From a virus (taxonomy: Duplodnaviria > Caudoviricetes): a stretch of DNA of 64,000 nucleotides. The translations under genes and the position numbers were made by a program. The stretch lies in the IMG/VR virus record IMGVR_UViG_3300021256_000056, positions 1 through 64,000 of that record; one strand, given 5' to 3'. Numbering within the stretch: position 1 is the first letter of the stretch; every line of letters starts with the position of its first letter. A model generated the notes under the pieces. The model saw nothing but the letters and a program-made list of their open reading frames with translations. It made no database searches and was not told the DNA's origin. This document shows, piece by piece, positions 38,641 through 55,827 of this stretch.

Positions 38641-38763
38641 AGAAAATCATTTAAAAGACTGGATTCGAACCAGCGTTTCCCCTGCTTTCCAGAGGCGTTC
38701 TGACCCCTAAACTACATGTCCGAAGTTTTGGTGGACACAGGTAAAACTTGCTGTTGGTTTTCT
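38641..38763 (-). ncRNA. ACAGCAA-helix RNA enclosing a permuted tRNA (acceptor 3' strand plus CCA first)
   Basis: AGAAAACC-AACAGCAA...TGTGTCCACCA-linker-GGACATG-D arm-stem-T arm...GATTTTCT. Confidence 0.7.
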
Positions 38764-42101: not shown

Positions 42102-42216
42102 TCGGGGAAGAAGGAATCGAACCTCCGCTAACGGCACCCAAAGCAATTTGACGCTGCTGTTAGTTTTCAATACTGAAAACATTTAAAACGTCGTGCTACC
42201 ACTACACTATTCCCCA
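42102..42216 (-). tRNA. tRNA-Pro(TGG) interrupted by a 44-nt ACAGCAG-helix insert (42145-42188) at position 29/30
   Basis: removing the insert restores ACG|GC-TTTGGGT-GCCGT. Confidence 0.85.
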
Positions 42217-42223
42217 AAATTTG

Positions 42224-42340
42224 TGAGGAGGATGGGACTCGGACCCATGACCCACGGGTTAAAAGCCAAGGTGAGGTTGCTGTTAGTTTTCAGTACAGAA
42301 AACGTTTTATACGTTGCTCTACCAACTGAGCTACCTCCTC
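42224..42340 (-). tRNA. tRNA-Lys(TTT) interrupted by a 44-nt ACAGCAA-helix insert (42268-42311) at position 29/30
   Basis: removing the insert restores ACG|GG-CTTTTAA-CCCGT. Confidence 0.87.
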
Positions 42341-43010: not shown

Positions 43011-43018
43011 ATATTGTG

Positions 43019-43421
43019 TGGAGATGGGCGGACTCGAACCGCCGTTTTTCAAGCTTGCAAACTGCTTTCTACGCGCTTAGTTTTCTTTATGATTCGTTGG
43101 GCACTGGTGGAAAACACACCTGAGTACTCAATATATCATTCTGGAAACGTAGCCAAACCAGACGAATGAAACTGGCCTGCCGCTCTCGATTTGATGATGC
43201 CCTCATATTGTGAATTCAACCAAGACCAAACATTCACGAGGACAATCGTCCCGACACATCCTAGGTGCCGATGGATTAGGCTTATTTGCTTAGCAAATTA
43301 AGCGGCGATTGCATAGGTGTTGTTGCCAACTAATTTTTTTGATATTTGTTTAAAGGCTAAAAATCAAAACGCCTGCGTGCTTACAATCCTCATAGATTGA
43401 AATCAAAACCAAAACATCCCC
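43019..43421 (-). ncRNA. ssrA: tmRNA, tag (A)GNNTYAIAA
   Basis: 5' GGGGATG, 3' GGTTCGAGTCCGCCCATCTCCA with G3:U70; tag ORF GGC AAC AAC ACC TAT GCA ATC GCC GCT TAA. Confidence 0.95.
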
Positions 43422-47748: not shown

Positions 47749-47880
47749 ATAAAAAAACTTAAGCCACTCGCGTCCCACAGGTCTGTTCTCGCTTTTATTA
47801 AGAGGTGCACACGAGATTACTCTCCCTCCTTTAAAGTAAGTCGCCCTCCTAAGCCTTGTCCGCTTAAGTTAAAAAACAAC

Positions 47881-47947
47881 GGGAAACATTTTTACGTATG
47901 TTCAGAAAGAAAGTCGGAATTTTAGTAAATTTTGCTGTTAGTTTCCC
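47881..47947 (-). ncRNA. ACAGCAA-helix RNA with Glu(TTC)-like loop
   Basis: GGGAAAC-TAACAGCAA...TTCCGA-CTTTCTT-TCTGAA...GTTTCCC. Confidence 0.7.
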
Positions 47948-47952
47948 TTTAG

Positions 47953-48074
47953 AGCTGATGCAAGGAATCGAACCTCGGTCTGCGGCTTGGAATGCATTTC
48001 TTGATTTTTGCTGTCCGTAACCTTGTCAGAATACCTTATTTGAAAACGCTGTGCTACCACTACACCACATCAGC
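47953..48074 (-). tRNA. tRNA-Gly(TCC) interrupted by a 51-nt ACAGCAA insert (47996-48046) at position 29/30
   Basis: removing the insert restores GCG|GC-ATTCCAA-GCCGC. Confidence 0.83.
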
Positions 48075-48332: not shown

Positions 48333-49020
48333 GTATGCTTTTTCGGTTTAACATTAACCGTATTACTGGCGGTTTTGGTATCGCACTTTTCCGCCTTAGT
48401 GCGTCCGAATTTCACGGAAGCCTTACTATCGCGAATAATGTACTTAAGGCTACTACCAAGGTGACTTGTGGAGCAGCCCTTCGCGATTATGATGCCACAA
48501 TGCACTTGGTTTATAATTTAAGGTTACCTAAAGTAGATGTGCCTTGGATTCGCACCTCTCACGGAGACTTTTTACACCAAAACCACTATAGTCAATTTTG
48601 GATATTAAGTTACTCAGCCTTTGACCCGATATACCATTTCACACCACTGCAGCTGGCGGCGATTTTGTACCTGGCCATACTCATTGTCACTTTAGTTTTT
48701 CGCGCTCGGGCTCCCTGCCCGTGTTGGCGTTGCAACCTCTGACTACTCTCACGGTTAAAACTGTGGGGGGTTCTTGGGAGCAAACACAAAGTGCTTTGGG
48801 AAGCATAGCCTATTGGCTTACTTTAACTCCACACAGGGGTAGTCCTCCCCTGTCCCAAATACATGTTTAGCCCTTGGTTTTCAGGCTTGTATTCTCGTTT
48901 TTTCGAGGTAAATTCGCCCCTTTTTGGTACCCAACGCATTGGAGAGTCGAACTCCGCTGCTTGCATATTCGAAAACACGCCCAAGGGGACCCTACTACCG
49001 TTCGGGATTACTGCTAAATT

Positions 49021-49232: not shown

Positions 49233-49564
49233 GTTTCTCACCTAAGACTAACGCGCTAATCTGTCATTCGCAATGCACTAGGTGTATAACTTTTTTTATA
49301 CGTGCAGTTCTAACCCCCTTCGTGACCCCTCAGTGCTACTATAGTCGCCCTATATTTGGATTACTGACGATACCCTACACCTACTCATCACGCCATTTAA
49401 CCGTGGCTCTCTCGCATTGTTCCAATCTACGAGAGGCCCCCCCACGGTGAGGCCGTTAGTCGGATTTGACTTGAGCAAGAAGTCTGAATTGAACAGCAAG
49501 TTCCGTCCTTACGTAGCGAACAAGGGACGGACGTCTCCCGAACCTGGGTATCTTGCTAAAAAAT

Positions 49565-49716
49565 GTGTAACCAGAAATCAGAAATGTTTTACTCTACCTA
49601 CTGAGCTACATGGGAAGAATACCGTAACTCCCACGGAGGGACTCGAACCCTCGTCCTTAGTTTTACAGACTTACAAACAATTAATGAACTTGCTGTAAGA
49701 TTTCTTCACGTTACAC
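49565..49716 (-). ncRNA. ACAGCAA-helix RNA enclosing a circularly permuted tRNA-Tyr(GTA)-like module
   Basis: order: helix, ACAGCAA, CTGTAAA loop, T arm, acceptor hairpin, D arm, helix. Confidence 0.8.
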
Positions 49717-50123: not shown

Positions 50124-50235
50124 GGGAAGCGTTTTACGTCCAACGGACGGGGGCGGACTTGAACCGCCGAACCTCTCAAGTTCTGATTTTCAGTCGGAAT
50201 TGTTAAACCTTTGTTGAGATTGCTGTGTGCTTCCC
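50124..50235 (-). ncRNA. ACAGCAA-helix RNA with Phe(GAA) loop, T arm and closed acceptor-like hairpin
   Basis: GGGAAGC-ACACAGCAA...CTGAAAA...GGCGG TTCAAGT CCGCC...CGTCC-GTT-GGACG...GCTTCCC. Confidence 0.78.
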
Positions 50236-51028: not shown

Positions 51029-51216
51029 AATATTCTTTTTATTATAAATAGTATGAAAAGAGAAAAATCGAACCTTTTTGGAAATTTTTATTTAGTTCGA
51101 ATATATAATGAAAAATGAATTTTCCTCTAAGGGGAGTAGTCTAACTCCCCAGTGTGTTTTATGACCTTTTCAGCAAACCAATGTAAAAACCCAATAACTA
51201 TGGTTGTAAAAATTTC

Positions 51217-51281
51217 GGAAATCTGTTTTTCAGAATATTAGATTAAAAGTCTAGTCCTTGATAAATTGCTGTAAGATTTCC
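51217..51281 (-). ncRNA. ACAGCAA-helix RNA with Lys(TTT) anticodon stem-loop
   Basis: GGAAATCT-TACAGCAA...TAGA-CTTTTAA-TCTA...AGATTTCC. Confidence 0.8.
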
Positions 51282-51283
51282 TC

Positions 51284-51374
51284 TGGCGGAGAGGCTGGGA
51301 TTCGAACCCAGGGGACGCTCAACACGCCCAACGGTTTTCAAGACCGCCGCTATCGACCACTCAGCCACCTCTCC
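51284..51374 (-). tRNA. tRNA-Ser(TGA)
   Basis: GCGGT-CTTGAAA-ACCGT; CCA encoded. Confidence 0.93.
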
Positions 51375-51383
51375 ATTAAATTT

Positions 51384-51453
51384 GAACTGCAAAAGGATTC
51401 GAACCTTTACCCGTGGACTATGCCCGCGTGTCCTGTCCATTAGACGATACAAT
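51384..51453 (-). pseudogene. degenerate tRNA
   Basis: D and T arms intact; loop GCATAGT lacks U33. Confidence 0.55.
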
Positions 51454-51525
51454 TTTTTATCGCAGTAAAGAGGCCACCACTGATTTAACACGGCATCAGC
51501 AATGACAACCACTACGCCACGTGTG

Positions 51526-51604
51526 CTGGGGTATGGTGATTCGAACACCAATTATTCTCACGCCCTTAGGGCTTGAGGCGGTACTACCGTTGTACTACAC
51601 CCCA
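51526..51604 (-). ncRNA. Gln-type tRNA body with extended anticodon arm (CCCTAAG apex)
   Basis: U1:A72, G73; CTCAAGCCCTAAGGGCGTGAG. Confidence 0.65.
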
Positions 51605-51725
51605 GTTTATGTCTCTCCAAAGTCACGCCACTTTTGGGTATTTATATCGCGGGGGCAGGTGTCGCCCTCGCTTATGGTAATTTATCTCAATATTGTCAAA
51701 GAACGTGTGTTCCGAAGAACTCTGG

Positions 51726-51778
51726 TGCAAATATATATGTAATTTTTCAAACTACAAAATATTTTTGCATTTTTTTTT
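51726..51778 (-). promoter_or_regulatory. duplicated promoter of the RNA island (second copy ~56856-56906)
   Basis: about 50-bp near-identical repeat with TTTG (-33) and TATATTTG (-7), followed by boxA-like GTTCTTTGA. Confidence 0.75.
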
Positions 51779-51780
51779 TG

Positions 51781-51857
51781 TCTAGGAGATGAGACTCGAA
51801 CTCACATTATCCTGGCTCCTGACCAGGCAACCTCACATCCAATTGGTTTACTCCTAG
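51781..51857 (-). tRNA. tRNA-Pro(AGG)
   Basis: CCTGG-TCAGGAG-CCAGG; C1:G72, A73; C33. Confidence 0.75.
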
Positions 51858-51872
51858 TTATATTTCAATTTG

Positions 51873-51956
51873 TGGCCCCGACGGGACTCGAACCCGTAAC
51901 CCTCGGTTTAAAAGACCGATGCGCTCGCTTTCGCTATCCATTTGCGCCACGAGGCC
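51873..51956 (-). tRNA. tRNA-Lys(TTT) with 10-nt D-loop expansion
   Basis: TCGGT-CTTTTAA-ACCGA; D loop carries GCGAAAGCGA. Confidence 0.82.
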
Positions 51957-52052
51957 GTTCCATTTTTCTCGGAAGCCTCGCATCACAATCGGGGCTTCAC
52001 ATTAATATTTCTGTTTTATACGTTTCATGTTTCTATTTTATTTCTTTTCTTG

Positions 52053-52140
52053 CTGGCCAGGAAGGATTCGAACCTCCAACCTTTGACACATCTAAAGCCT
52101 TTAGGGCAGTGCCTGCTCTCCCATTTGGAGCTACTAGCCA
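52053..52140 (-). ncRNA. Gln-type tRNA body with extended anticodon arm (CCCTAAA)
   Basis: TGGCTAG/CTGGCCA-G; GGCACTGCCCTAAAGGCTTTAGATGTGTC. Confidence 0.65.
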
Positions 52141-52184
52141 GTTCTTTTGACAGTTTTTGGCATGCCACTGACAAACCGACAGGT

Positions 52185-52258
52185 ACTGGGTGACGGAATC
52201 GAACCGACATCAGATGCTTGAAAGGCACCTCGCCTCAACCATTAGCAGATTAACCCAG
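52185..52258 (-). tRNA. divergent tRNA-Glu(TTC)-like gene
   Basis: AGGTGC-CTTTCAA-GCATCT; imperfect acceptor stem. Confidence 0.55.
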
Positions 52259-52266
52259 CATGTATT

Positions 52267-52530
52267 TTAATGAACTAAATGTTTAAATTTTTCCAATTTC
52301 AATTTCGCTTCTTCTCTATCTTCCTCGGTCAAAAGTCTATTTGTACTCCCCACGTGCCACTTATCACACTTTGAACATTTATAAGCCACCATCTTATGTA
52401 ATATGTTTTCACAAGTATTAAGGAACCTGGCCGTTGTCAGAGCATCCATCTCAGTATCGTAGCTCTTTTTGGGGACCAATTTGTCTCCCTCAATCTTATA
52501 ATGGCTTCTTATTGTTCTTTTTTCATCCAT
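52267..52530 (-). CDS. small Zn-ribbon protein
   Basis: AYKCSKCDKWHVG; preceded by a sigma54-like promoter. Confidence 0.7.
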   Translation of the reverse strand: MDEKRTIRSHYKIEGDKLVPKKSYDTEMDALTTARFLNTCENILHKMVAYKCSKCDKWHVGSTNRLLTEEDREEAKLKLEKFKHLVH

Positions 52531-52544
52531 ACGAAATTCATAAT

Positions 52545-52560
52545 GCAAATTTCGTGCCAA
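52545..52560 (-). promoter_or_regulatory. sigma54 (-24/-12) promoter
   Basis: TTGGCACGAAATTTGC. Confidence 0.7.
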
Positions 52561-52984
52561 AGTTTTCTTTTTCTAAAAATTTCTTCAAAAAAACCTCCAG
52601 AGAGTTTTGGGGAACATCTTTGGAGGCGTGGAATATAGTGTCGGTCTAAACCGTGTGGTGCTATGTATTATGCATCTGTTCCCATTATTCCTCCTCCTAG
52701 TCCTTTAAATGGCCATGCGCCGAGGCGTTCCTCTGACTTTCTAATGCTGACATATAGGCATGGGCAATCAAGGCTGCTCTTGTGGGAGCCTCCCATGACG
52801 TTTGTATTATTGCTCAGCATAACCATTTTGTACCTATTTTTCAATTATAAATATATGATAAAATCGAAAAAACTAAAATTCTGTGCAAATATATATGCTT
52901 TTTTTGTAAAAATCAACAAAAAACAAAAAAAAAGAGCGAATTTTTTAGATTCGCTCAATACGTTTATCACTGTTTATTCAAATC

Positions 52985-53323
52985 TTACCTACCAGCAGCG
53001 AGTATGTATGAGGCAATCATTTTTCCCCAAGCATCGTCTCTAGGGATTGAGAATTCACCACCGTTATCCCAATCGTACCCTGTTGGTGCCCACATAATTG
53101 TTATGTGGTCGTAACTTGGCATAAGACGGTACATCTTTCCAGACTTTCCCCTTACCTCAAAATCTTGGTGTCCTTCTTTTGATACACGTTCTCCGTAGAT
53201 GTCGTCCATTATTTCTTTTGAAGGAATGGGGTTATCTGTCCACTCATTTAGCACTTTTTTAACGCTTTCTTTAACTATTTTACGAAGCTGTGATTCGTTG
53301 AGATTTATAGTATTCTTTTTCAT
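52985..53323 (-). CDS. hypothetical protein with large-phage N-terminal LNESQLRKIVKESV motif
   Basis: motif, upstream ACTATTTAT. Confidence 0.7.
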   Translation of the reverse strand: MKKNTINLNESQLRKIVKESVKKVLNEWTDNPIPSKEIMDDIYGERVSKEGHQDFEVRGKSGKMYRLMPSYDHITIMWAPTGYDWDNGGEFSIPRDDAWGKMIASYILAAGR

Positions 53324-53395
53324 GTGCTTTTAATTTTCTTATAAATAGTTTGTTGAAACAAAAAAGCCTCAGATTTATCTGAGGCTTATAGGAAC

Positions 53396-53462
53396 GGAAA
53401 ACTTTTTGTTAAAATTCGAAGTTTGGAATCGGATTTGGTCTAATATTTGCTGTCGGTTTTCC
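53396..53462 (-). ncRNA. ACAGCAA-helix RNA with Trp(CCA)-like loop
   Basis: GGAAAAC-CGACAGCAA...TTCCAAA...GTTTTCC. Confidence 0.68.
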
Positions 53463-53476
53463 TATTTTTGTCTGTT

Positions 53477-53794
53477 TTAGTCTTCAAAGTATTCCTTGAT
53501 AAGTGCCTTAATGGTTTCAAGTTCTACTTCCCTGTCGCGGAGTTCGAGAGCGAGATTGATACGTTTGCGTACCCAGTCCTTGGTGTTGAGGTTTTCTCCG
53601 ACGATGAGGCTCTGTGTGCTTCTCACTGAGAGGTCTTCCATGGAGACAATCTCATTGTTGATGGTGCGGATGCACTTTTCGACTGAACGCTTTTCATCTT
53701 CAAAGACGTCCTTGGTCTCTTCGGTGACATTCTGTGCCCTTTTCTGAATAAGGTTGTCACCAGTGTTTGTTAAGATTTGAGTAAATTTTCCCAT
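53477..53794 (-). CDS. coiled-coil hypothetical protein
   Basis: 105 aa ORF. Confidence 0.65.
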   Translation of the reverse strand: MGKFTQILTNTGDNLIQKRAQNVTEETKDVFEDEKRSVEKCIRTINNEIVSMEDLSVRSTQSLIVGENLNTKDWVRKRINLALELRDREVELETIKALIKEYFED

Positions 53795-53795
53795 A

Positions 53796-54137
53796 TTATT
53801 TGCTGTTTATTACGTGTCTATGCTGGAGTTTATAAAGTCCTGGAACGATTTCGATGCTTGCGTGCGATTCTGATTCCCAGTCTTCGATTGTGTTATCAAT
53901 CTTCTCGATTATGCTTCCTCCGTCGTGTCGCAAAACTTCGTGCATGATTGCAATCTCACGTTTAGTTTCTAATTCCCGATGGACTTTCTCTGGGAGGGCT
54001 GCAGCAAGTGTTGCGTAGTCATTAGAGCTAAGGCTGACCTGCACTGTTACGTTATGGTCTCTCGCATCGCTTTCGCAAGTCACAAGGACGTTATCTCCGT
54101 AATCGTTAGTCGCAGTTAAGTTATTAATATTAGTCAT
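53796..54137 (-). CDS. hypothetical protein
   Basis: 113 aa ORF. Confidence 0.6.
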   Translation of the reverse strand: MTNINNLTATNDYGDNVLVTCESDARDHNVTVQVSLSSNDYATLAAALPEKVHRELETKREIAIMHEVLRHDGGSIIEKIDNTIEDWESESHASIEIVPGLYKLQHRHVINSK

Positions 54138-54154
54138 GTTTTTCGTAAATTTTG

Positions 54155-54226
54155 TGCTCCATACAGGAATCGAACCCGTCTAAGAACGTTTTAGGGACGC
54201 CCGCTCGGCCACTGAGCCAATGGAGC
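54155..54226 (-). tRNA. amber suppressor-like tRNA (CTA)
   Basis: GCTCCAT/ATGGAGC-A; GGCGT-CCCTAAA-ACGTT; C33. Confidence 0.75.
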
Positions 54227-54234
54227 AGAAAGAC

Positions 54235-54295
54235 AGGAAACATTAAAATCAACATTATCAGTGTTTATTTGACGAAAGGTTGCTGTGTGTTTCCT
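54235..54295 (-). ncRNA. ACAGCAA-helix RNA with Ile(GAT) anticodon stem-loop
   Basis: AGGAAACA-CACAGCAA...AACA-CTGATAA-TGTT...TGTTTCCT. Confidence 0.78.
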
Positions 54296-54311
54296 TATCT
54301 TAATGTTTCGT

Positions 54312-54602
54312 TTATTGAACCAACTTAAGTCCTTTAAACATTTCACCCGAATCTTCAACCGCAATTGCCGTAAGGCTATTGTTTAAATCGGGCTCGTAGA
54401 ACGCAGAATAAGTCTTATGTTTGTCCCTCAATCTCTGTCTCCATTTCTCAACGTCGGCGTAGAGATATATAAGGTACTCATTATTCCATTGTTGCTGTGG
54501 GTTATCCAAAAGATATTGTGCAACTGCGTGCCCACCTTGAACGCAGGCGTAAACGGGGTTGAGTCGTTTACTCACCAGCACGTACAATCTCTTCGCAGAC
54601 AT
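54312..54602 (-). CDS. peptidyl-tRNA hydrolase PTH2-like protein
   Basis: LYVLVSKRL...VQGGHAV...FYEPDLNNSLTAIA. Confidence 0.7.
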   Translation of the reverse strand: MSAKRLYVLVSKRLNPVYACVQGGHAVAQYLLDNPQQQWNNEYLIYLYADVEKWRQRLRDKHKTYSAFYEPDLNNSLTAIAVEDSGEMFKGLKLVQ

Positions 54603-55023
54603 CGGTATACACTTTAATCGTTTCTTCCCCCCAGTATGTTTTACAATTTTTTTCCTCATAGACTTTTAACTGATAACCATAGGTTTTCAGATAACTATTA
54701 ATCTCATCAGAATAAAGGAACAAGGGGTGTTTTCCTTCGAGGTGGTCAGCCAAGCGATATCCAGTTTGGCGGTAGTAGTCTTCTTTGTTAAGAGGCTTCG
54801 CCTTATTTTCTATCTGCTCAAACTTTCTTCCTCTCATTAACCCATATGCCGCATACATTGCCCTTAGGGTGTCTTTATTACTAGAAACCTTCCAGCAGGC
54901 TTCATACGGTTGCATTGTCCTTTCGGTCTTTAGGTTAACAGTTTTTCTTTGTTCTTTTGCTTTTCTTTGTTCCACCTCCAAGGCGGCGATTTCCTTACGG
55001 AATTCAATAATTTCTTGTTTCAT
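54568..55023 (-). CDS. hypothetical protein
   Basis: LRAMYAAYGLMRGRKFEQIE; directly upstream of the PTH2-like gene. Confidence 0.7.
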   Translation of the reverse strand: MKQEIIEFRKEIAALEVEQRKAKEQRKTVNLKTERTMQPYEACWKVSSNKDTLRAMYAAYGLMRGRKFEQIENKAKPLNKEDYYRQTGYRLADHLEGKHPLFLYSDEINSYLKTYGYQLKVYEEKNCKTYWGEETIKVYTDVCEEIVRAGE

Positions 55024-55093
55024 AATGTTGTTTGGTTTTAATCATTTTATTTTTGGCTCTCGCCGACAAATTCCACTTTCAAATCAAACACCA

Positions 55094-55126
55094 TTAAGGT
55101 GGAACTGGATTAACCTAGTGTTTCAT
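55094..55126 (-). promoter_or_regulatory. leader uORF MKH-amber-VNPVPP-ochre
   Basis: ATG AAA CAC TAG GTT AAT CCA GTT CCA CCT TAA with A-rich leader. Confidence 0.55.
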
Positions 55127-55158
55127 AACGATAATTGTTAAGTTTGTTATTAAAAATA

Positions 55159-55468
55159 AAAAGAACACTACGGTAGGATTACTGATTACCTACAAATACT
55201 CTACAAGCGCGTTATTCAGTCACACCCAAGAAGGTTAGCTACGCCTACTTTTAAAAGGGTGAGGGGAATGCTTACCCCCAAACGGATACAGCCATCAGTC
55301 ACTGTAACTACGATTTGTCCGTTTCTTACGTCACTCTCGGTTGGCCAACCGAGGCTACTTCAACCTTACGCTTCGTGTTGCCCTCTAACCGCCTCCTGAA
55401 CTTTTCAGTCCAGGCTAACGTACCTTATGGGCAGGCTACCCATTGTTCGGTCACAAAGTGTTCTTTTT
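55159..55468 (-). ncRNA. candidate ~300-nt structured RNA
   Basis: terminal pairing AAAAGAACACT/AGTGTTCTTTT, GC-rich hairpins, own promoter, no credible ORF. Confidence 0.55.
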
Positions 55469-55567
55469 ATGATGGGTCGCCCCGCCATAAATTTTCTTTT
55501 TTTTAAAGAGCTTTTACAAAAATACGACCTTTTAATTAAAAAAGCAAGGTCTTTTAATAAAAAAAAC

Positions 55568-55625
55568 GGAAAACTTTTTTGTGACGCAGTATTATCAGTA
55601 CTTCCAAAATTGCTGTAAGTTTTCC
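55568..55625 (-). ncRNA. ACAGCAA-helix RNA with Ile(GAT) anticodon stem-loop
   Basis: GGAAAACT-TACAGCAA...AGTA-CTGATAA-TACT...AGTTTTCC. Confidence 0.8.
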
Positions 55626-55646
55626 TGCCTTGCCAGGTCGAGTTTG

Positions 55647-55827
55647 TTGCGGGGGCAGGAATCGAACCTGCGACCTTCAGCTTAGGATTGGTAGGAGGAA
55701 TCGAACCTCCGTTTTCACGTGCCTTACTAGGGCTAGATGTCCTGTACCACTAGACGACACCAATCTGGTTCGTTACAGTGAACCACGCTGTATTGAGGCT
55801 GACGAGCTACCGCTGCTCCACCCCGCA
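55647..55827 (-). tRNA. fMet-like tRNA(CAT) whose anticodon contains a 109-nt insert holding a second tRNA-like gene
   Basis: TCAGC-CTCA|insert 55685-55793|TAA-GCTGA. Confidence 0.8.

What the first reader, a model, noticed from the sequence alone, without database searches (positions are those of the whole stretch)
51217..55625. Minimal ~60-nt RNAs consisting of clamp plus anticodon stem-loop
Seen: TAGA-CTTTTAA-TCTA (Lys, 51217), AACA-CTGATAA-TGTT (Ile, 54235) and AGTA-CTGATAA-TACT (Ile, 55568). Weaker Trp (53396) and Glu (47881) examples also occur. The two Ile copies have different stems but an identical canonical loop, which points to selection on the loop. The phage's functional tRNA-Ile has the variant loop CTGATAC. 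Inference: the decoy keeps a host-like cleavable loop while the working tRNA has escaped.
Basis: partly seen in the sequence, partly recalled or inferred. Interest (0 to 1): 0.78.

Follow-up and report, generated by a model that had tools for sequence, protein, structure and literature searches.

The report
Phage Y-like RNAs displaying anticodon loops
The ~60-base hairpins are real small-RNA genes of a widespread, apparently undescribed phage family: a conserved "handle" (clamp helix plus ACAGCAA) that travels with a Ro60-like ring protein and carries a copy of a tRNA anticodon loop at its tip, whose three anticodon letters change fast between related phages.

Summary
Observation confirmed. 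Five ~60-68-nt RNAs lie on the tRNA (minus) strand. Each has a 7-9-bp terminal clamp, an invariant ACAGCAA and an apical hairpin. Three carry canonical anticodon loops: Lys CUUUUAA once and Ile CUGAUAA twice. The "Trp" and "Glu" copies are not canonical.

They belong to a family of at least 73 distinct members in large gut and rumen phage contigs. Members always sit in tRNA arrays on the tRNA strand, with strong covariation. Canonical loops occur in 54-64% of members, against about 6% by chance. Between orthologs the whole RNA is conserved more than its flanks, yet the anticodon triplet switches.

The same handle is inserted in three tRNAs of the window and closes a permuted, YrlA-like tRNA mimic.

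All five relatives tested encode a DUF2828/DUF7788 protein that folds like Ro60. In five distant loci, handle RNAs sit directly beside that gene. The best reading is therefore Y-RNA-like partner RNAs of a phage Ro60-like protein, with the anticodon loop as a tRNA-mimicking bait or specificity module.

Only tRNA-Ile differs here; phage Lys, Tyr, Asn and Cys tRNAs keep the same loops as the small RNAs.

The handle also matches Dictyostelium Class I RNAs. The scan found this family before on other DNA. This record (53% complete) shows no Ro60-like gene. Binding and function are untested.

The parts
51216..51281 (-). Short handle RNA. 8-bp clamp, UACAGCAA, P2 (AGGA/UUCU), apical UAGA-CUUUUAA-UCUA (Lys UUU-like). 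It starts 2 nt after tRNA-Ser(UGA).
   Evidence: R1 67.6 bits; sequence and fold; 2-nt gap to the tRNA; best Rfam look-alike RF01414, 23.3 bits
54234..54295 (-). Short handle RNA. Clamp (A)GGAAACA/UGUUUCC(U)G, ACAGCAA, apical AACA-CUGAUAA-UGUU (Ile GAU-like). It ends 7 nt before the suppressor tRNA(CUA).
   Evidence: R1 49.7 bits
55567..55625 (-). Short handle RNA. Clamp GGAAAACU(U)/(A)AGUUUUCC-G, ACAGCAA, apical AGUA-CUGAUAA-UACU (Ile GAU-like).
   Evidence: R1 49.7 bits
53395..53462 (-). Short handle RNA with a non-canonical apical hairpin (loop contains UUCCAAA). It lies between the stop codon of ORF 53477-53794 and an intrinsic terminator.
   Evidence: R1 54.7 bits; terminator-like site 53387-53364 on the minus strand
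47880..47947 (-). Short handle RNA with a non-canonical apical hairpin (UUCCGA-CUUUCUU-UCUGAA, one mismatch). It directly follows the insert-bearing tRNA-Gly.
   Evidence: R1 62.6 bits
49573..49705 (-). Long member. The handle closes a permuted tRNA mimic in the order anticodon-like loop CUGUAAA, T arm, closed acceptor, D arm.
   Evidence: Rfam YrlA RF02553, 31.4 bits, E 1e-3, below the gathering score of 69; clamp AGAAAUC/GAUUUCU plus ACAGCAA
50124..50235 (-). Long member. Handle, then a Phe-like loop CUGAAAA, a T arm and a closed hairpin. A look-alike exists in another phage (L077:6377-6494).
38641..38763 (-). Long member. Handle (weaker clamp AGAAAA/UUUUCU) with tRNA-like D, anticodon and T arms inside.
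   Evidence: partial R1 hit 38705-38760
42102..42340 (-). Two adjacent tRNAs, Lys(UUU) at 42224-42340 and Pro(UGG) at 42102-42216. Each carries a 44-nt insert in the 5' strand of the anticodon stem: 8 nt + GUUUUC-N6-GAAAAC + UAACAGCAR + 9 nt.
   Evidence: Sequences. Removing the inserts in silico gives tRNAs that ARAGORN calls Lys(UUU) and Pro(UGG).
47953..48074 (-). tRNA-Gly(UCC) with a 51-nt insert containing ACAGCAA at the same place in the anticodon stem.

Best explanation
The ~60-nt elements are genes for small structured RNAs of a Y-RNA-like family. They are transcribed with the phage tRNAs and probably trimmed by the tRNA-processing nucleases. Each RNA has two parts. The first is a conserved 'handle': a 6-9-bp helix joining the 5' and 3' ends, (A)G...C(U)G termini, an unpaired ACAGCAA just after the 5' strand, and a short U-rich/A-rich second helix. 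By inference this is the binding site for a phage-encoded, divergent Ro60-like ring protein (Pfam DUF2828 + DUF7788/vWA). This parallels the terminal stem of Y RNAs, which binds Ro60/Rsr. The second part is a variable distal module that mimics part of a tRNA. In these minimal forms only the anticodon stem-loop is present. In sister copies there is also a T arm or a whole permuted tRNA, as in bacterial YrlA. By analogy with Ro60-Y RNA particles, where the RNA tethers or gates other proteins, the anticodon-loop mimic would recruit or trap a factor that reads anticodon loops. That factor could be a host anticodon nuclease, a modification enzyme or a repair enzyme. The fast-changing triplet would set which one. 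Shown: the RNA family, its structure, its tRNA-array context, selection on the loop, and genomic linkage to the Ro60-like gene in relatives and in distant loci. Inferred: expression, protein binding and what the loop captures.
For: Family and structure. 73 distinct members were collected from dozens of phage and metagenome contigs, and the metagenome scan added more. Five relative records of 275-413 kb, four of them 100% complete, hold 2-7 members each. All 12 modelled base pairs show changes on both sides, 95.4% of cells are paired, and 0 of 500 shuffles reach this. G.U pairs occur on the tRNA strand only.

Context. Members are always on the strand of neighbouring tRNAs. 21 of 54 lie within 25 nt of a tRNA, often 1-7 nt away.

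Selection. L018/L028 are identical over 61 nt except the anticodon GUA to GCU, while the flanks are about 90% identical. L023/L104 are identical over 63 nt except UAU to UGA, with flanks about 85% identical. In the four closest pairs the anticodon changed at 5 of 12 sites against 4 of 238 elsewhere (p = 1e-5). A Lys(UUU) lineage keeps UUU while the rest of the RNA diverges.

Protein link. DUF2828 hits were found in 4 of 4 complete relatives and DUF7788 in the fifth, against no control genome over the curated cut-off (DUF2828 0 of 14; DUF7788 one weak match below it). An AlphaFold model of one of these proteins has all top 11 Foldseek hits and all top 10 VIA-align hits in Ro60/Rsr/TROVE. VIA-align gives Z 12.4-15.7; the six longest of these ten alignments cover 331-369 residues and both domains (the other four only 234-260 residues), standing above vWA-only matches at Z 11.3 or less. 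A 43-nt handle-only member ends 4 nt before the ATG of this gene in one relative. Five independent loci encode homologs only 28-35% identical. In four of them handle RNAs (E 1e-5 to 0.014) lie on the gene's strand directly beside the gene, as arrays of up to five. In the fifth only weak hits (E 0.6-0.8) lie about 3 kb away.

tRNA mimicry as in YrlA. The sister copy 49573-49705 matches Rfam YrlA weakly.

RNA-repair context. RtcB is present in 3 of 5 relatives, 8-10 kb from the Ro60-like gene. Rnl2-type ligase domains are present in 4 of 4 relatives tested.
Against: This phage record has no DUF2828, DUF7788 or TROVE match in its 195 kb. It is only about 53% complete, so the partner is inferred from relatives. 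In this megaphage lineage the RNA genes lie 10-100 kb from the protein gene, not beside it. The Pfam TROVE model does not hit the protein, and the full-length fold match has low TM (0.26-0.33) on a middling model (pLDDT 67). The handle motif ACAGCAA differs from the known Ro60-binding motifs GNCGAA(N)G and CGAA (PMC4201824, PMC12135203). Nothing shows what, if anything, the anticodon loop binds. About a third of short members have no canonical anticodon loop.
Confidence: 0.55

Rival explanations
1. Free-standing decoys. The RNAs act alone as competitive substrates or inhibitors of host anticodon nucleases such as PrrC-, PARIS- or colicin-E5-like enzymes. The phage's own tRNAs carry loop variants that escape.
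For: Canonical loops occur far above chance. Lys(UUU) is about 9-fold enriched, and Tyr, Asn, His and Asp (GUN) loops are present. The anticodon triplet changes rapidly between orthologs, as an arms race would predict. The window's tRNA-Ile has C38 where the small RNAs have A38. Relatives encode RNA ligases.
Against: Phage Lys, Tyr, Asn and Cys tRNAs keep exactly the same loops as the small RNAs, and C38 in tRNA-Ile occurs in only 5 of 11. A pure decoy does not explain the invariant ACAGCAA handle, its insertion into tRNAs, its T-arm-only members or its linkage to the Ro60-like gene. Known anticodon nucleases depend on base modifications (established for PrrC), and it is unknown whether a bare hairpin acquires them. 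No nuclease was identified.
Confidence: 0.12
2. The handle is a processing (cleavage and ligation) signal, a phage analogue of the archaeal bulge-helix-bulge. It marks inserts in tRNAs for excision and permuted tRNAs for circularisation, with RtcB as ligase. The minimal forms are by-products, regulators or relics of that pathway.
For: The same handle forms 44-51-nt inserts in the anticodon stems of three tRNAs. Removing the inserts restores perfect tRNAs. The handle also closes a permuted tRNA-like gene. RtcB is present in 3 of 5 relatives. Lak megaphages are reported to have 'enigmatic' tRNA introns (PMC6784885).
Against: The minimal forms have no exons, yet they are more conserved than their flanks, and their anticodon triplet appears to be under selection. 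Arrays of handle RNAs sit beside Ro60-like genes far from any tRNA. No splicing endonuclease was found and no spliced product could be looked for. The distance from ACAGCAA to the loop varies from 7 to 18 nt.
Confidence: 0.1
3. Class-I-type protein sponges that do not involve Ro60. The handle binds a host RNA-binding protein, for example the RRM proteins that Bacteroidota use as RNA chaperones. The apical loops are incidental remains of tRNA-derived sequence.
For: The architecture equals that of Dictyostelium Class I RNAs, which bind the RRM protein Rnp1A (PMC7919456). B. thetaiotaomicron has RRM_1 proteins (control row).
Against: No RRM gene was found in the five phage records searched, including this one. 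The host is unknown. The loops are not incidental, because they show canonical frames, covarying stems and selected triplets. This reading does not explain the linkage to the Ro60-like gene.
Confidence: 0.05
4. Arm-less minimal tRNAs that are charged and used in decoding. The clamp serves as acceptor stem with G as discriminator.
For: A 7-bp terminal helix is followed by a conserved G. The anticodon loops are canonical. The position and spacing inside tRNA arrays are tRNA-like. The anticodon shifts resemble tRNA remoulding.
Against: There are no D or T arms and no CCA. The same discriminator and near-identical clamps go with many different anticodons. Many members lack an anticodon-like loop or carry only a T arm. 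The bacterial ribosome and EF-Tu are not known to use such RNAs (established knowledge). ARAGORN and the Rfam tRNA model do not call them.
Confidence: 0.02

Closest known systems
Ro60/Rsr with Y RNAs, especially the tRNA-like YrlA of bacteria and mycobacteriophages (Rfam RF02553; Chen et al. 2014, PMC4201824) and phiLo phage Ro60 with Yrl1/Yrl2 (PMC12135203)
   Same: The RNAs are small and their 5' and 3' ends pair in a terminal stem. A conserved motif sits on the 5' side of that stem. The distal module is variable and mimics tRNA parts; the sister copy 49573-49705 has the YrlA order T arm, closed acceptor, D arm. The RNA genes are encoded beside or in the same genome as a ring-plus-vWA protein that folds like Ro60, and RtcB is often nearby, as in the Salmonella rsr-yrlBA-rtcBA operon.
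   Different: The protein is not recognised by the TROVE model and belongs to DUF2828/DUF7788. The RNA motif is ACAGCAA, unpaired, not GNCGAA(N)G or CGAA. The Rfam YrlA model does not reach its threshold on any copy. The minimal forms carry an anticodon arm, which YrlA lacks, and no T or D arm. In this lineage the RNAs are scattered through a tRNA array and the handle is also inserted into real tRNAs.
Class I RNAs of dictyostelid social amoebae (Rfam RF01414; Kjellin et al. 2021, PMC7919456)
   Same: Length is similar: median 66 nt here against about 60. GC is similar: median 32% against 32-41%. Both have a short terminal stem kept by compensatory changes, a conserved 5' G with (A)G...C(U)G ends, and the motif (C)UUACAGCAA at the same offset (8-9 nt) directly after the 5' stem strand. 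Both follow the motif with a U-rich stretch that can pair with a purine-rich stretch (UAAGAAAA or UAGAAAA) before the 3' strand. The rest is variable.
   Different: The Rfam model gives only 23.3 bits (gathering score 41.5) on one copy and nothing on two others. There is no DUSE promoter. The host is a phage, not an amoeba. Class I RNAs are not known to carry anticodon-like loops, although a few printed sequences have U-run/A-run hairpins with 7-nt loops such as CUGAUUA. They are reported to bind the RRM protein Rnp1A. Whether the likeness reflects common descent or a shared partner is open.
Phage tRNAs that counter anticodon nucleases (T5 tRNA-Lys against PARIS, PMC11464382) and loop-variant phage tRNAs
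   Same: The RNAs are encoded in phage tRNA clusters. Lys(UUU) is the dominant specificity. The anticodon loop is the part that matters.
   Different: Those are complete, functional tRNAs that replace or resist cleavage. These are hairpins without a tRNA body, attached to a conserved protein-binding handle, and no nuclease link has been shown.
Disrupted tRNA genes: permuted and intron-containing tRNAs processed at bulge-helix-bulge motifs (PMC3978253), and the 'enigmatic introns' of Lak megaphage tRNAs (PMC6784885)
   Same: Short non-group-I inserts occur in the anticodon arm of phage tRNAs. One tRNA is nested in another at 55645-55820. There is a permuted tRNA-like gene.
   Different: The minimal forms have no exons. 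No bulge-helix-bulge motif or splicing endonuclease was identified. The insert carries the same handle as the free RNAs.

Membership tests
tRNA (Rfam RF00005) | Cloverleaf with acceptor, D, anticodon and T arms | tested here: not met
   Neither ARAGORN nor the Rfam tRNA model calls any of the five short elements. Only a terminal helix and an anticodon-like hairpin are present.
Y RNA / YrlA (Rfam RF02553) | Terminal stem formed by the 5' and 3' ends, kept by covariation | tested here: met
   All 7 clamp pairs change on both sides and 99.5% of cells are paired.
Y RNA / YrlA (Rfam RF02553) | Ro60-binding motif GNCGAA(N)G or CGAA near the 5' end (PMC4201824, PMC12135203) | tested here: not met
   The conserved motif is ACAGCAA in 72 of 73 members. 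No CGAA motif is conserved.
Y RNA / YrlA (Rfam RF02553) | tRNA-like domain (T arm, closed acceptor, D arm) and a score above the Rfam threshold | tested here: not met
   The short forms give no YrlA hit. The sister copy 49561-49677 has the domain but scores 31.4 bits against a gathering score of 69.
Y RNA / YrlA (Rfam RF02553) | Encoded near a Ro60 (TROVE) gene on the same strand | tested here: inconclusive
   This record has no TROVE, DUF2828 or DUF7788 match in 195 kb and is 53% complete. All five relatives carry a Ro60-like gene in the same genome. Handle RNAs lie directly beside the gene in 4 of 5 distant loci and in one relative.
Y RNA / YrlA (Rfam RF02553) | Physical binding to Ro60 | not testable with these tools
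   This needs EMSA, co-immunoprecipitation or CLIP.
Ro60 / TROVE (partner protein of relatives) | Sequence match to Pfam TROVE PF05731 | tested here: not met
   No hit in the own record or in the five relatives, while the controls D. radiodurans and B. thetaiotaomicron do hit. The proteins match DUF2828 + DUF7788 (+ weak VWA_2).
Ro60 / TROVE (partner protein of relatives) | Helical-repeat ring followed by a vWA domain | tested here: met
   The AlphaFold model (pLDDT 67) has 11 Ro60/Rsr/TROVE entries as its top Foldseek hits, E 1.6e-6 to 1.3e-4. VIA-align gives Z 12.4-15.7; six of the ten alignments cover 331-369 residues across both domains and four cover 234-260 residues. vWA-only matches score Z 11.3 or less. 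TM is low (0.26-0.33), so ring closure itself is not shown.
Dictyostelium Class I RNA (Rfam RF01414) | 42-65 nt, short terminal stem with compensatory changes, conserved 5' G | tested here: met
   Median length is 66 nt. The first two nucleotides are GG or AG in 69 of 73 members. The stem covaries.
Dictyostelium Class I RNA (Rfam RF01414) | 11-nt motif CCUUACAGCAA next to the 5' stem strand, and a CUGU 3' end | tested here: met
   ACAGCAA is invariant at offset 8-9, preceded by C-W-U (CUUACAGCAA in several copies). The last three nucleotides are CUG in 20 members and CCG in 46 of 73. All six Dictyostelium sequences tested align to the phage profile at the same position. Five of the six score above the 99.9th percentile of shuffles and the sixth equals it, though the scores are low at 2.6-7.9 bits.
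Dictyostelium Class I RNA (Rfam RF01414) | Score at or above the Rfam gathering threshold (41.5 bits) | tested here: not met
   23.3 bits, E 0.01, on 51231-51280 with the 3' stem misaligned. No hit on 55558-55636 or on L106:4842-4914.
Dictyostelium Class I RNA (Rfam RF01414) | DUSE promoter about 60 nt upstream; occurrence in Dictyostelia | tested here: not met
   The elements lie 1-7 nt from tRNAs in a phage tRNA array, which also holds a tmRNA and HNH endonuclease genes.
Anticodon-nuclease decoy (no curated family) | Loop identical to the targeted host tRNA, and bound or cut by the nuclease | not testable with these tools
   The host is unknown. CUUUUAA and CUGAUAA equal the usual bacterial Lys and Ile loops (textbook knowledge) and the loops of most phage tRNAs in this clade. 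Cleavage and binding need experiments.

The most novel reading that the evidence does not exclude
The handle RNAs are programmable baits of a viral Ro60-like particle. The hypervariable anticodon triplet chooses which anticodon-reading host factor is captured on the ring and neutralised, for example a PrrC-, PARIS- or VapC-type tRNA nuclease. Alternatively it chooses whose damaged tRNA is handed to RtcB. On this reading the orphan Class I RNAs of Dictyostelium are the eukaryotic branch of the same RNA-protein family, with a DUF2828 protein as their missing partner.
Probability: 0.2. Interest if true: 0.9.

Novelty: new variant of a known kind. Interest (0 to 1): 0.8.

Why it matters
If the reading holds, Ro60-Y RNA particles have a large unrecognised viral branch. 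So far they are known from animals, about 5% of bacteria and a few phages. This branch would have its own protein family (DUF2828/DUF7788, more than 2,600 sequence clusters) and its own RNA handle. The minimal forms studied here reduce the 'tRNA mimic' half of a Y RNA to a bare anticodon arm. They also show that the anticodon triplet is the selected, fast-changing part. That gives a concrete handle on the long-open question of what the tRNA-like module of bacterial Y RNAs is for. It further links phage tRNA arrays, 'enigmatic' inserts in megaphage tRNAs and RNA-repair ligases in one picture. Finally, it offers a testable partner for the Dictyostelium Class I RNAs, whose mechanism is unexplained and which were thought unique to social amoebae.

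Tried and rejected
- Read evidence: RNA runs from ruminant gut samples hold 6-19% of the region's words. So there are no expression, end-mapping or splicing data.
- Rfam at gathering thresholds finds only tRNAs and the tmRNA. E-value scans give nothing for the elements except the weak RF01414 hit. Weak plus-strand similarity to the Bacteroides GibS/FopS 5' ends (E 1.7-4.8) was judged not significant.
- The Pfam TROVE search was negative everywhere. I first took this as evidence against a Y-RNA reading. It was overturned when DUF2828/DUF7788 proteins were found and folded.
- RRM_1 is absent from the five phage records searched. The T4 Rnl1 search was uninformative because the control rang nowhere.
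- Megablast of 47-56 kb against GenBank phages gave no match.
- Neighbour proteins: only HNH endonucleases and one 115-aa ORF recur near members. That ORF (54312-54659) looked PTH2-like by eye. It has only a PHROG 'hydrolase' hit and no PDB sequence match.
- The single prokaryotic-genome hit of the strict pattern (Rossellomorea aquimaris, L139) is a 12-bp perfect palindrome that pairs part of the motif. About 0.5 hits are expected by chance, so it was rejected as a member.
- Considered and set aside for lack of matching core motifs (from memory, not tested): small self-cleaving ribozymes, kink-turn or box C/D, the preQ1 aptamer, REP/MITE-like DNA elements, and terminators. Only one element is followed by a terminator.
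- No intron-less orthologs of the three insert-bearing tRNAs were found in the fetched loci.

Full report
**Setting.** The window is the first 64 kb of a 195-kb virus record, about 53% complete and 40% GC. Runs from ruminant and other animal gut samples hold parts of it. From 38 to 57 kb the minus strand carries 36 ARAGORN genes: 35 tRNAs, among them a CUA suppressor, and one tmRNA. Rfam adds tRNA hits of 108-122 nt (three of them shown below to carry inserts). HNH endonuclease genes and small ORFs are interspersed.

**The observation.** The three quoted elements are present as described. Each has a clamp helix and a 4-bp hairpin with loop CUUUUAA (51216-51281) or CUGAUAA (54234-54295 and 55567-55625). 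The two further copies, 53395-53462 and 47880-47947, have non-canonical apical hairpins. All five also share an invariant ACAGCAA 1-2 nt after the 5' clamp strand, and a G after the 3' strand.

**The family.**
- I scanned viral contigs with a pattern that fixes only GGAAA, ACAGCAA and UUUCCG.
- Of 98 unique hits, 25 form a clamp of at least 7 bp. All 25 lie within 1.5 kb of tRNA genes, always on the tRNA strand.
- 14 of these 25 have a canonical Y-U-NNN-R-N 7-nt loop on a stem of at least 4 bp, against 3 of the 73 other hits (p = 6e-8).
- A covariance model (R1, from alignment A1) recovers the five window copies and no others.
- R1 finds 57 distinct members in 29 loci of other phages. It finds 2-7 per genome in five relatives of 275-413 kb.
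- Strict-pattern scans add metagenome members and essentially nothing from 185,579 prokaryotic genomes.
- All 12 modelled pairs covary.
- A second helix joins the U-rich stretch after ACAGCAA to the A-rich stretch before the 3' clamp strand. It changes in a compensatory way: AGGA/UUCU, UAGU/ACUG, UUUAAAC/GUUUAAA.
- 21 of 54 members abut a tRNA, often with gaps of 1-7 nt. One window copy sits just before an intrinsic terminator. Co-transcription and trimming with the tRNAs is therefore the natural inference.

**Loops.**
- 33 of 61 short members have a canonical loop hairpin, against 5.8% of shuffled interiors.
- Lys(UUU) leads with 10, followed by GCA with 8 and GAU with 3. Tyr, Asn, His, Asp, Ser, Thr, Phe, Pro and Gly triplets also occur.
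- Lys(UUU) is about 9-fold enriched over its share of tRNA genes.
- Between orthologs the RNA is far better conserved than its flanks, but the triplet switches. L018 and L028 differ only by GUA to GCU. L023 and L104 differ only by UAU to UGA. The flanks are about 90% and about 85% identical.
- In the four closest pairs, 5 of 12 anticodon sites changed against 4 of 238 others (p = 1e-5). That is also more than the flank divergence predicts (p = 0.013).
- A Lys lineage keeps UUU while its other parts drift.
- So the triplet is functionally read. It is neither neutral nor a relic.

Across the clade, however, phage tRNA loops equal those of the small RNAs: Lys 7/7, Tyr 6/6, Asn 10/10, Cys 5/5. Ile is split 6 to 5.

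**Sister forms.**
- The same handle, closed by a hexaloop, forms 44-, 44- and 51-nt inserts in the 5' strand of the anticodon stem of tRNA-Lys(UUU), Pro(UGG) and Gly(UCC). Deleting the inserts gives perfect tRNAs.
- The handle closes a permuted tRNA mimic at 49573-49705, which matches Rfam YrlA weakly.
- It also closes forms with an anticodon arm plus a T arm, or with a T arm only.
- The constant part is the handle. The variable part is a piece of tRNA.

**What the handle resembles.**
- An E-value scan of one element gave a single notable hit: Dictyostelium Class I RNA, RF01414, at 23.3 bits and E 0.01, below the threshold of 41.5. Two other members gave no hit.
- Feature by feature the likeness is close: length, GC, a covarying terminal stem, (A)G...C(U)G ends, (C)UUACAGCAA at the same offset, and U-rich/purine-rich pairing (PMC7919456).
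- I treat this as a real resemblance of unknown cause, not as membership.

**The protein partner.**
- My first TROVE searches were negative.
- Notes from earlier follow-ups of this scan on other genomes reported the same handle beside a DUF2828 'Ro60-like' protein. I tested that lead here.
- DUF2828 or DUF7788 is present in all five relatives and in no control genome over the cut-off (one weak DUF7788 match in Lactococcus lactis).
- The protein family is large: 2,603 clusters.
- An AlphaFold model of one member finds Ro60/Rsr/TROVE structures as all its top full-length matches. These include the phage phiLo Ro60.
- A handle-only RNA ends 4 nt before the start codon of this gene in one relative.
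- In five independent loci the homologs are only 28-35% identical. Handle RNAs lie beside the gene on its strand in four of them and weakly in the fifth, some with CUGAUAA loops or T arms.
- RtcB lies 8-10 kb from the Ro60-like gene in three relatives.
- I found no paper that describes DUF2828 as Ro60-like or describes these RNAs.

**Conclusion.** The minimal RNAs are best explained as Y-RNA-like partners of a divergent phage Ro60-like protein. The anticodon arm is a tRNA-mimicking module whose triplet sets specificity.

Weak points are:
- This incomplete record shows no Ro60-like gene.
- There are no expression data.
- Nothing is known about binding.

Noticed in passing
window 55645-55820 (-): A tRNA-Met-like gene is split in its anticodon loop (CUCA|UAA) by about 109 nt. 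The insert holds AUACAGCG, a hairpin and a complete inner tRNA-Thr(AGU)-like gene (55685-55764). This is the same oddity reported for Lak megaphages (PMC6784885).
   Followed up: partly
window 42102-42340 and 47953-48074 (-): Three tRNAs (Pro UGG, Lys UUU, Gly UCC) carry handle-containing inserts of 44, 44 and 51 nt in the 5' strand of the anticodon stem. In-silico removal gives perfect tRNAs. Whether the inserts are spliced is unknown.
   Followed up: partly
window 54154-54226 (-) and 43016-43421 (-): A suppressor tRNA(CUA), which suggests TAG recoding in part of the genome, and a phage tmRNA with tag GNNTYAIAA. Relatives L090 and L009 hit the permuted-tmRNA model.
   Followed up: no
window 54312-54659 (-): A 115-aa ORF with a PHROG 'hydrolase' hit. 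It looks PTH2-like by eye but has no Pfam or PDB sequence support. Homologs 54-63% identical lie near handle RNAs in five other phage loci.
   Followed up: partly
family members, e.g. L077:9885-9954, L097:342-412, L150, window 50124-50235: The middle pair of the anticodon-like stem (position 29:41) repeatedly shows a C.A or A.C mismatch, as in UCCGA...UCAGA. This is the place where the handle is inserted in the three tRNAs.
   Followed up: no
family members: Many apical loops contain the palindrome UGCA, for example CUGCAAA, UUGCAAC and UUGCAAU. They read as Cys GCA but could also allow loop-loop dimers.
   Followed up: no
window 48340-48900 and 55160-55480: Long, gene-free, GC-richer stretches lie between tRNAs and look structured. 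The second gives only a weak manA-RNA hit (E 0.1). They may be further non-coding RNAs.
   Followed up: no
window 51384-51454, 51780-51857, 51872-51956 (-): ARAGORN calls tRNA-Tyr(AUA), tRNA-Pro(AGG) and a tRNA-Met with non-canonical anticodon loops (GCAUAGU, UCAGGAG, CGCAUCG). They may be tRNA-like RNAs or miscalled genes.
   Followed up: no
L174:83-1420 (relative G003): The ORF just upstream of the Ro60-like gene has a treble-clef zinc-finger domain (DUF4379). It is itself preceded by another ACAGCAA element at the edge of the locus.
   Followed up: no
Dictyostelium Class I sequences printed: A few Class I RNAs (DdR-31, -33, -60, -28) have U-run/A-run hairpins with 7-nt loops that begin with CU (CUGAUUA, CUGAAUA, CUUCACA). 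This faintly recalls the phage anticodon-like loops.
   Followed up: no
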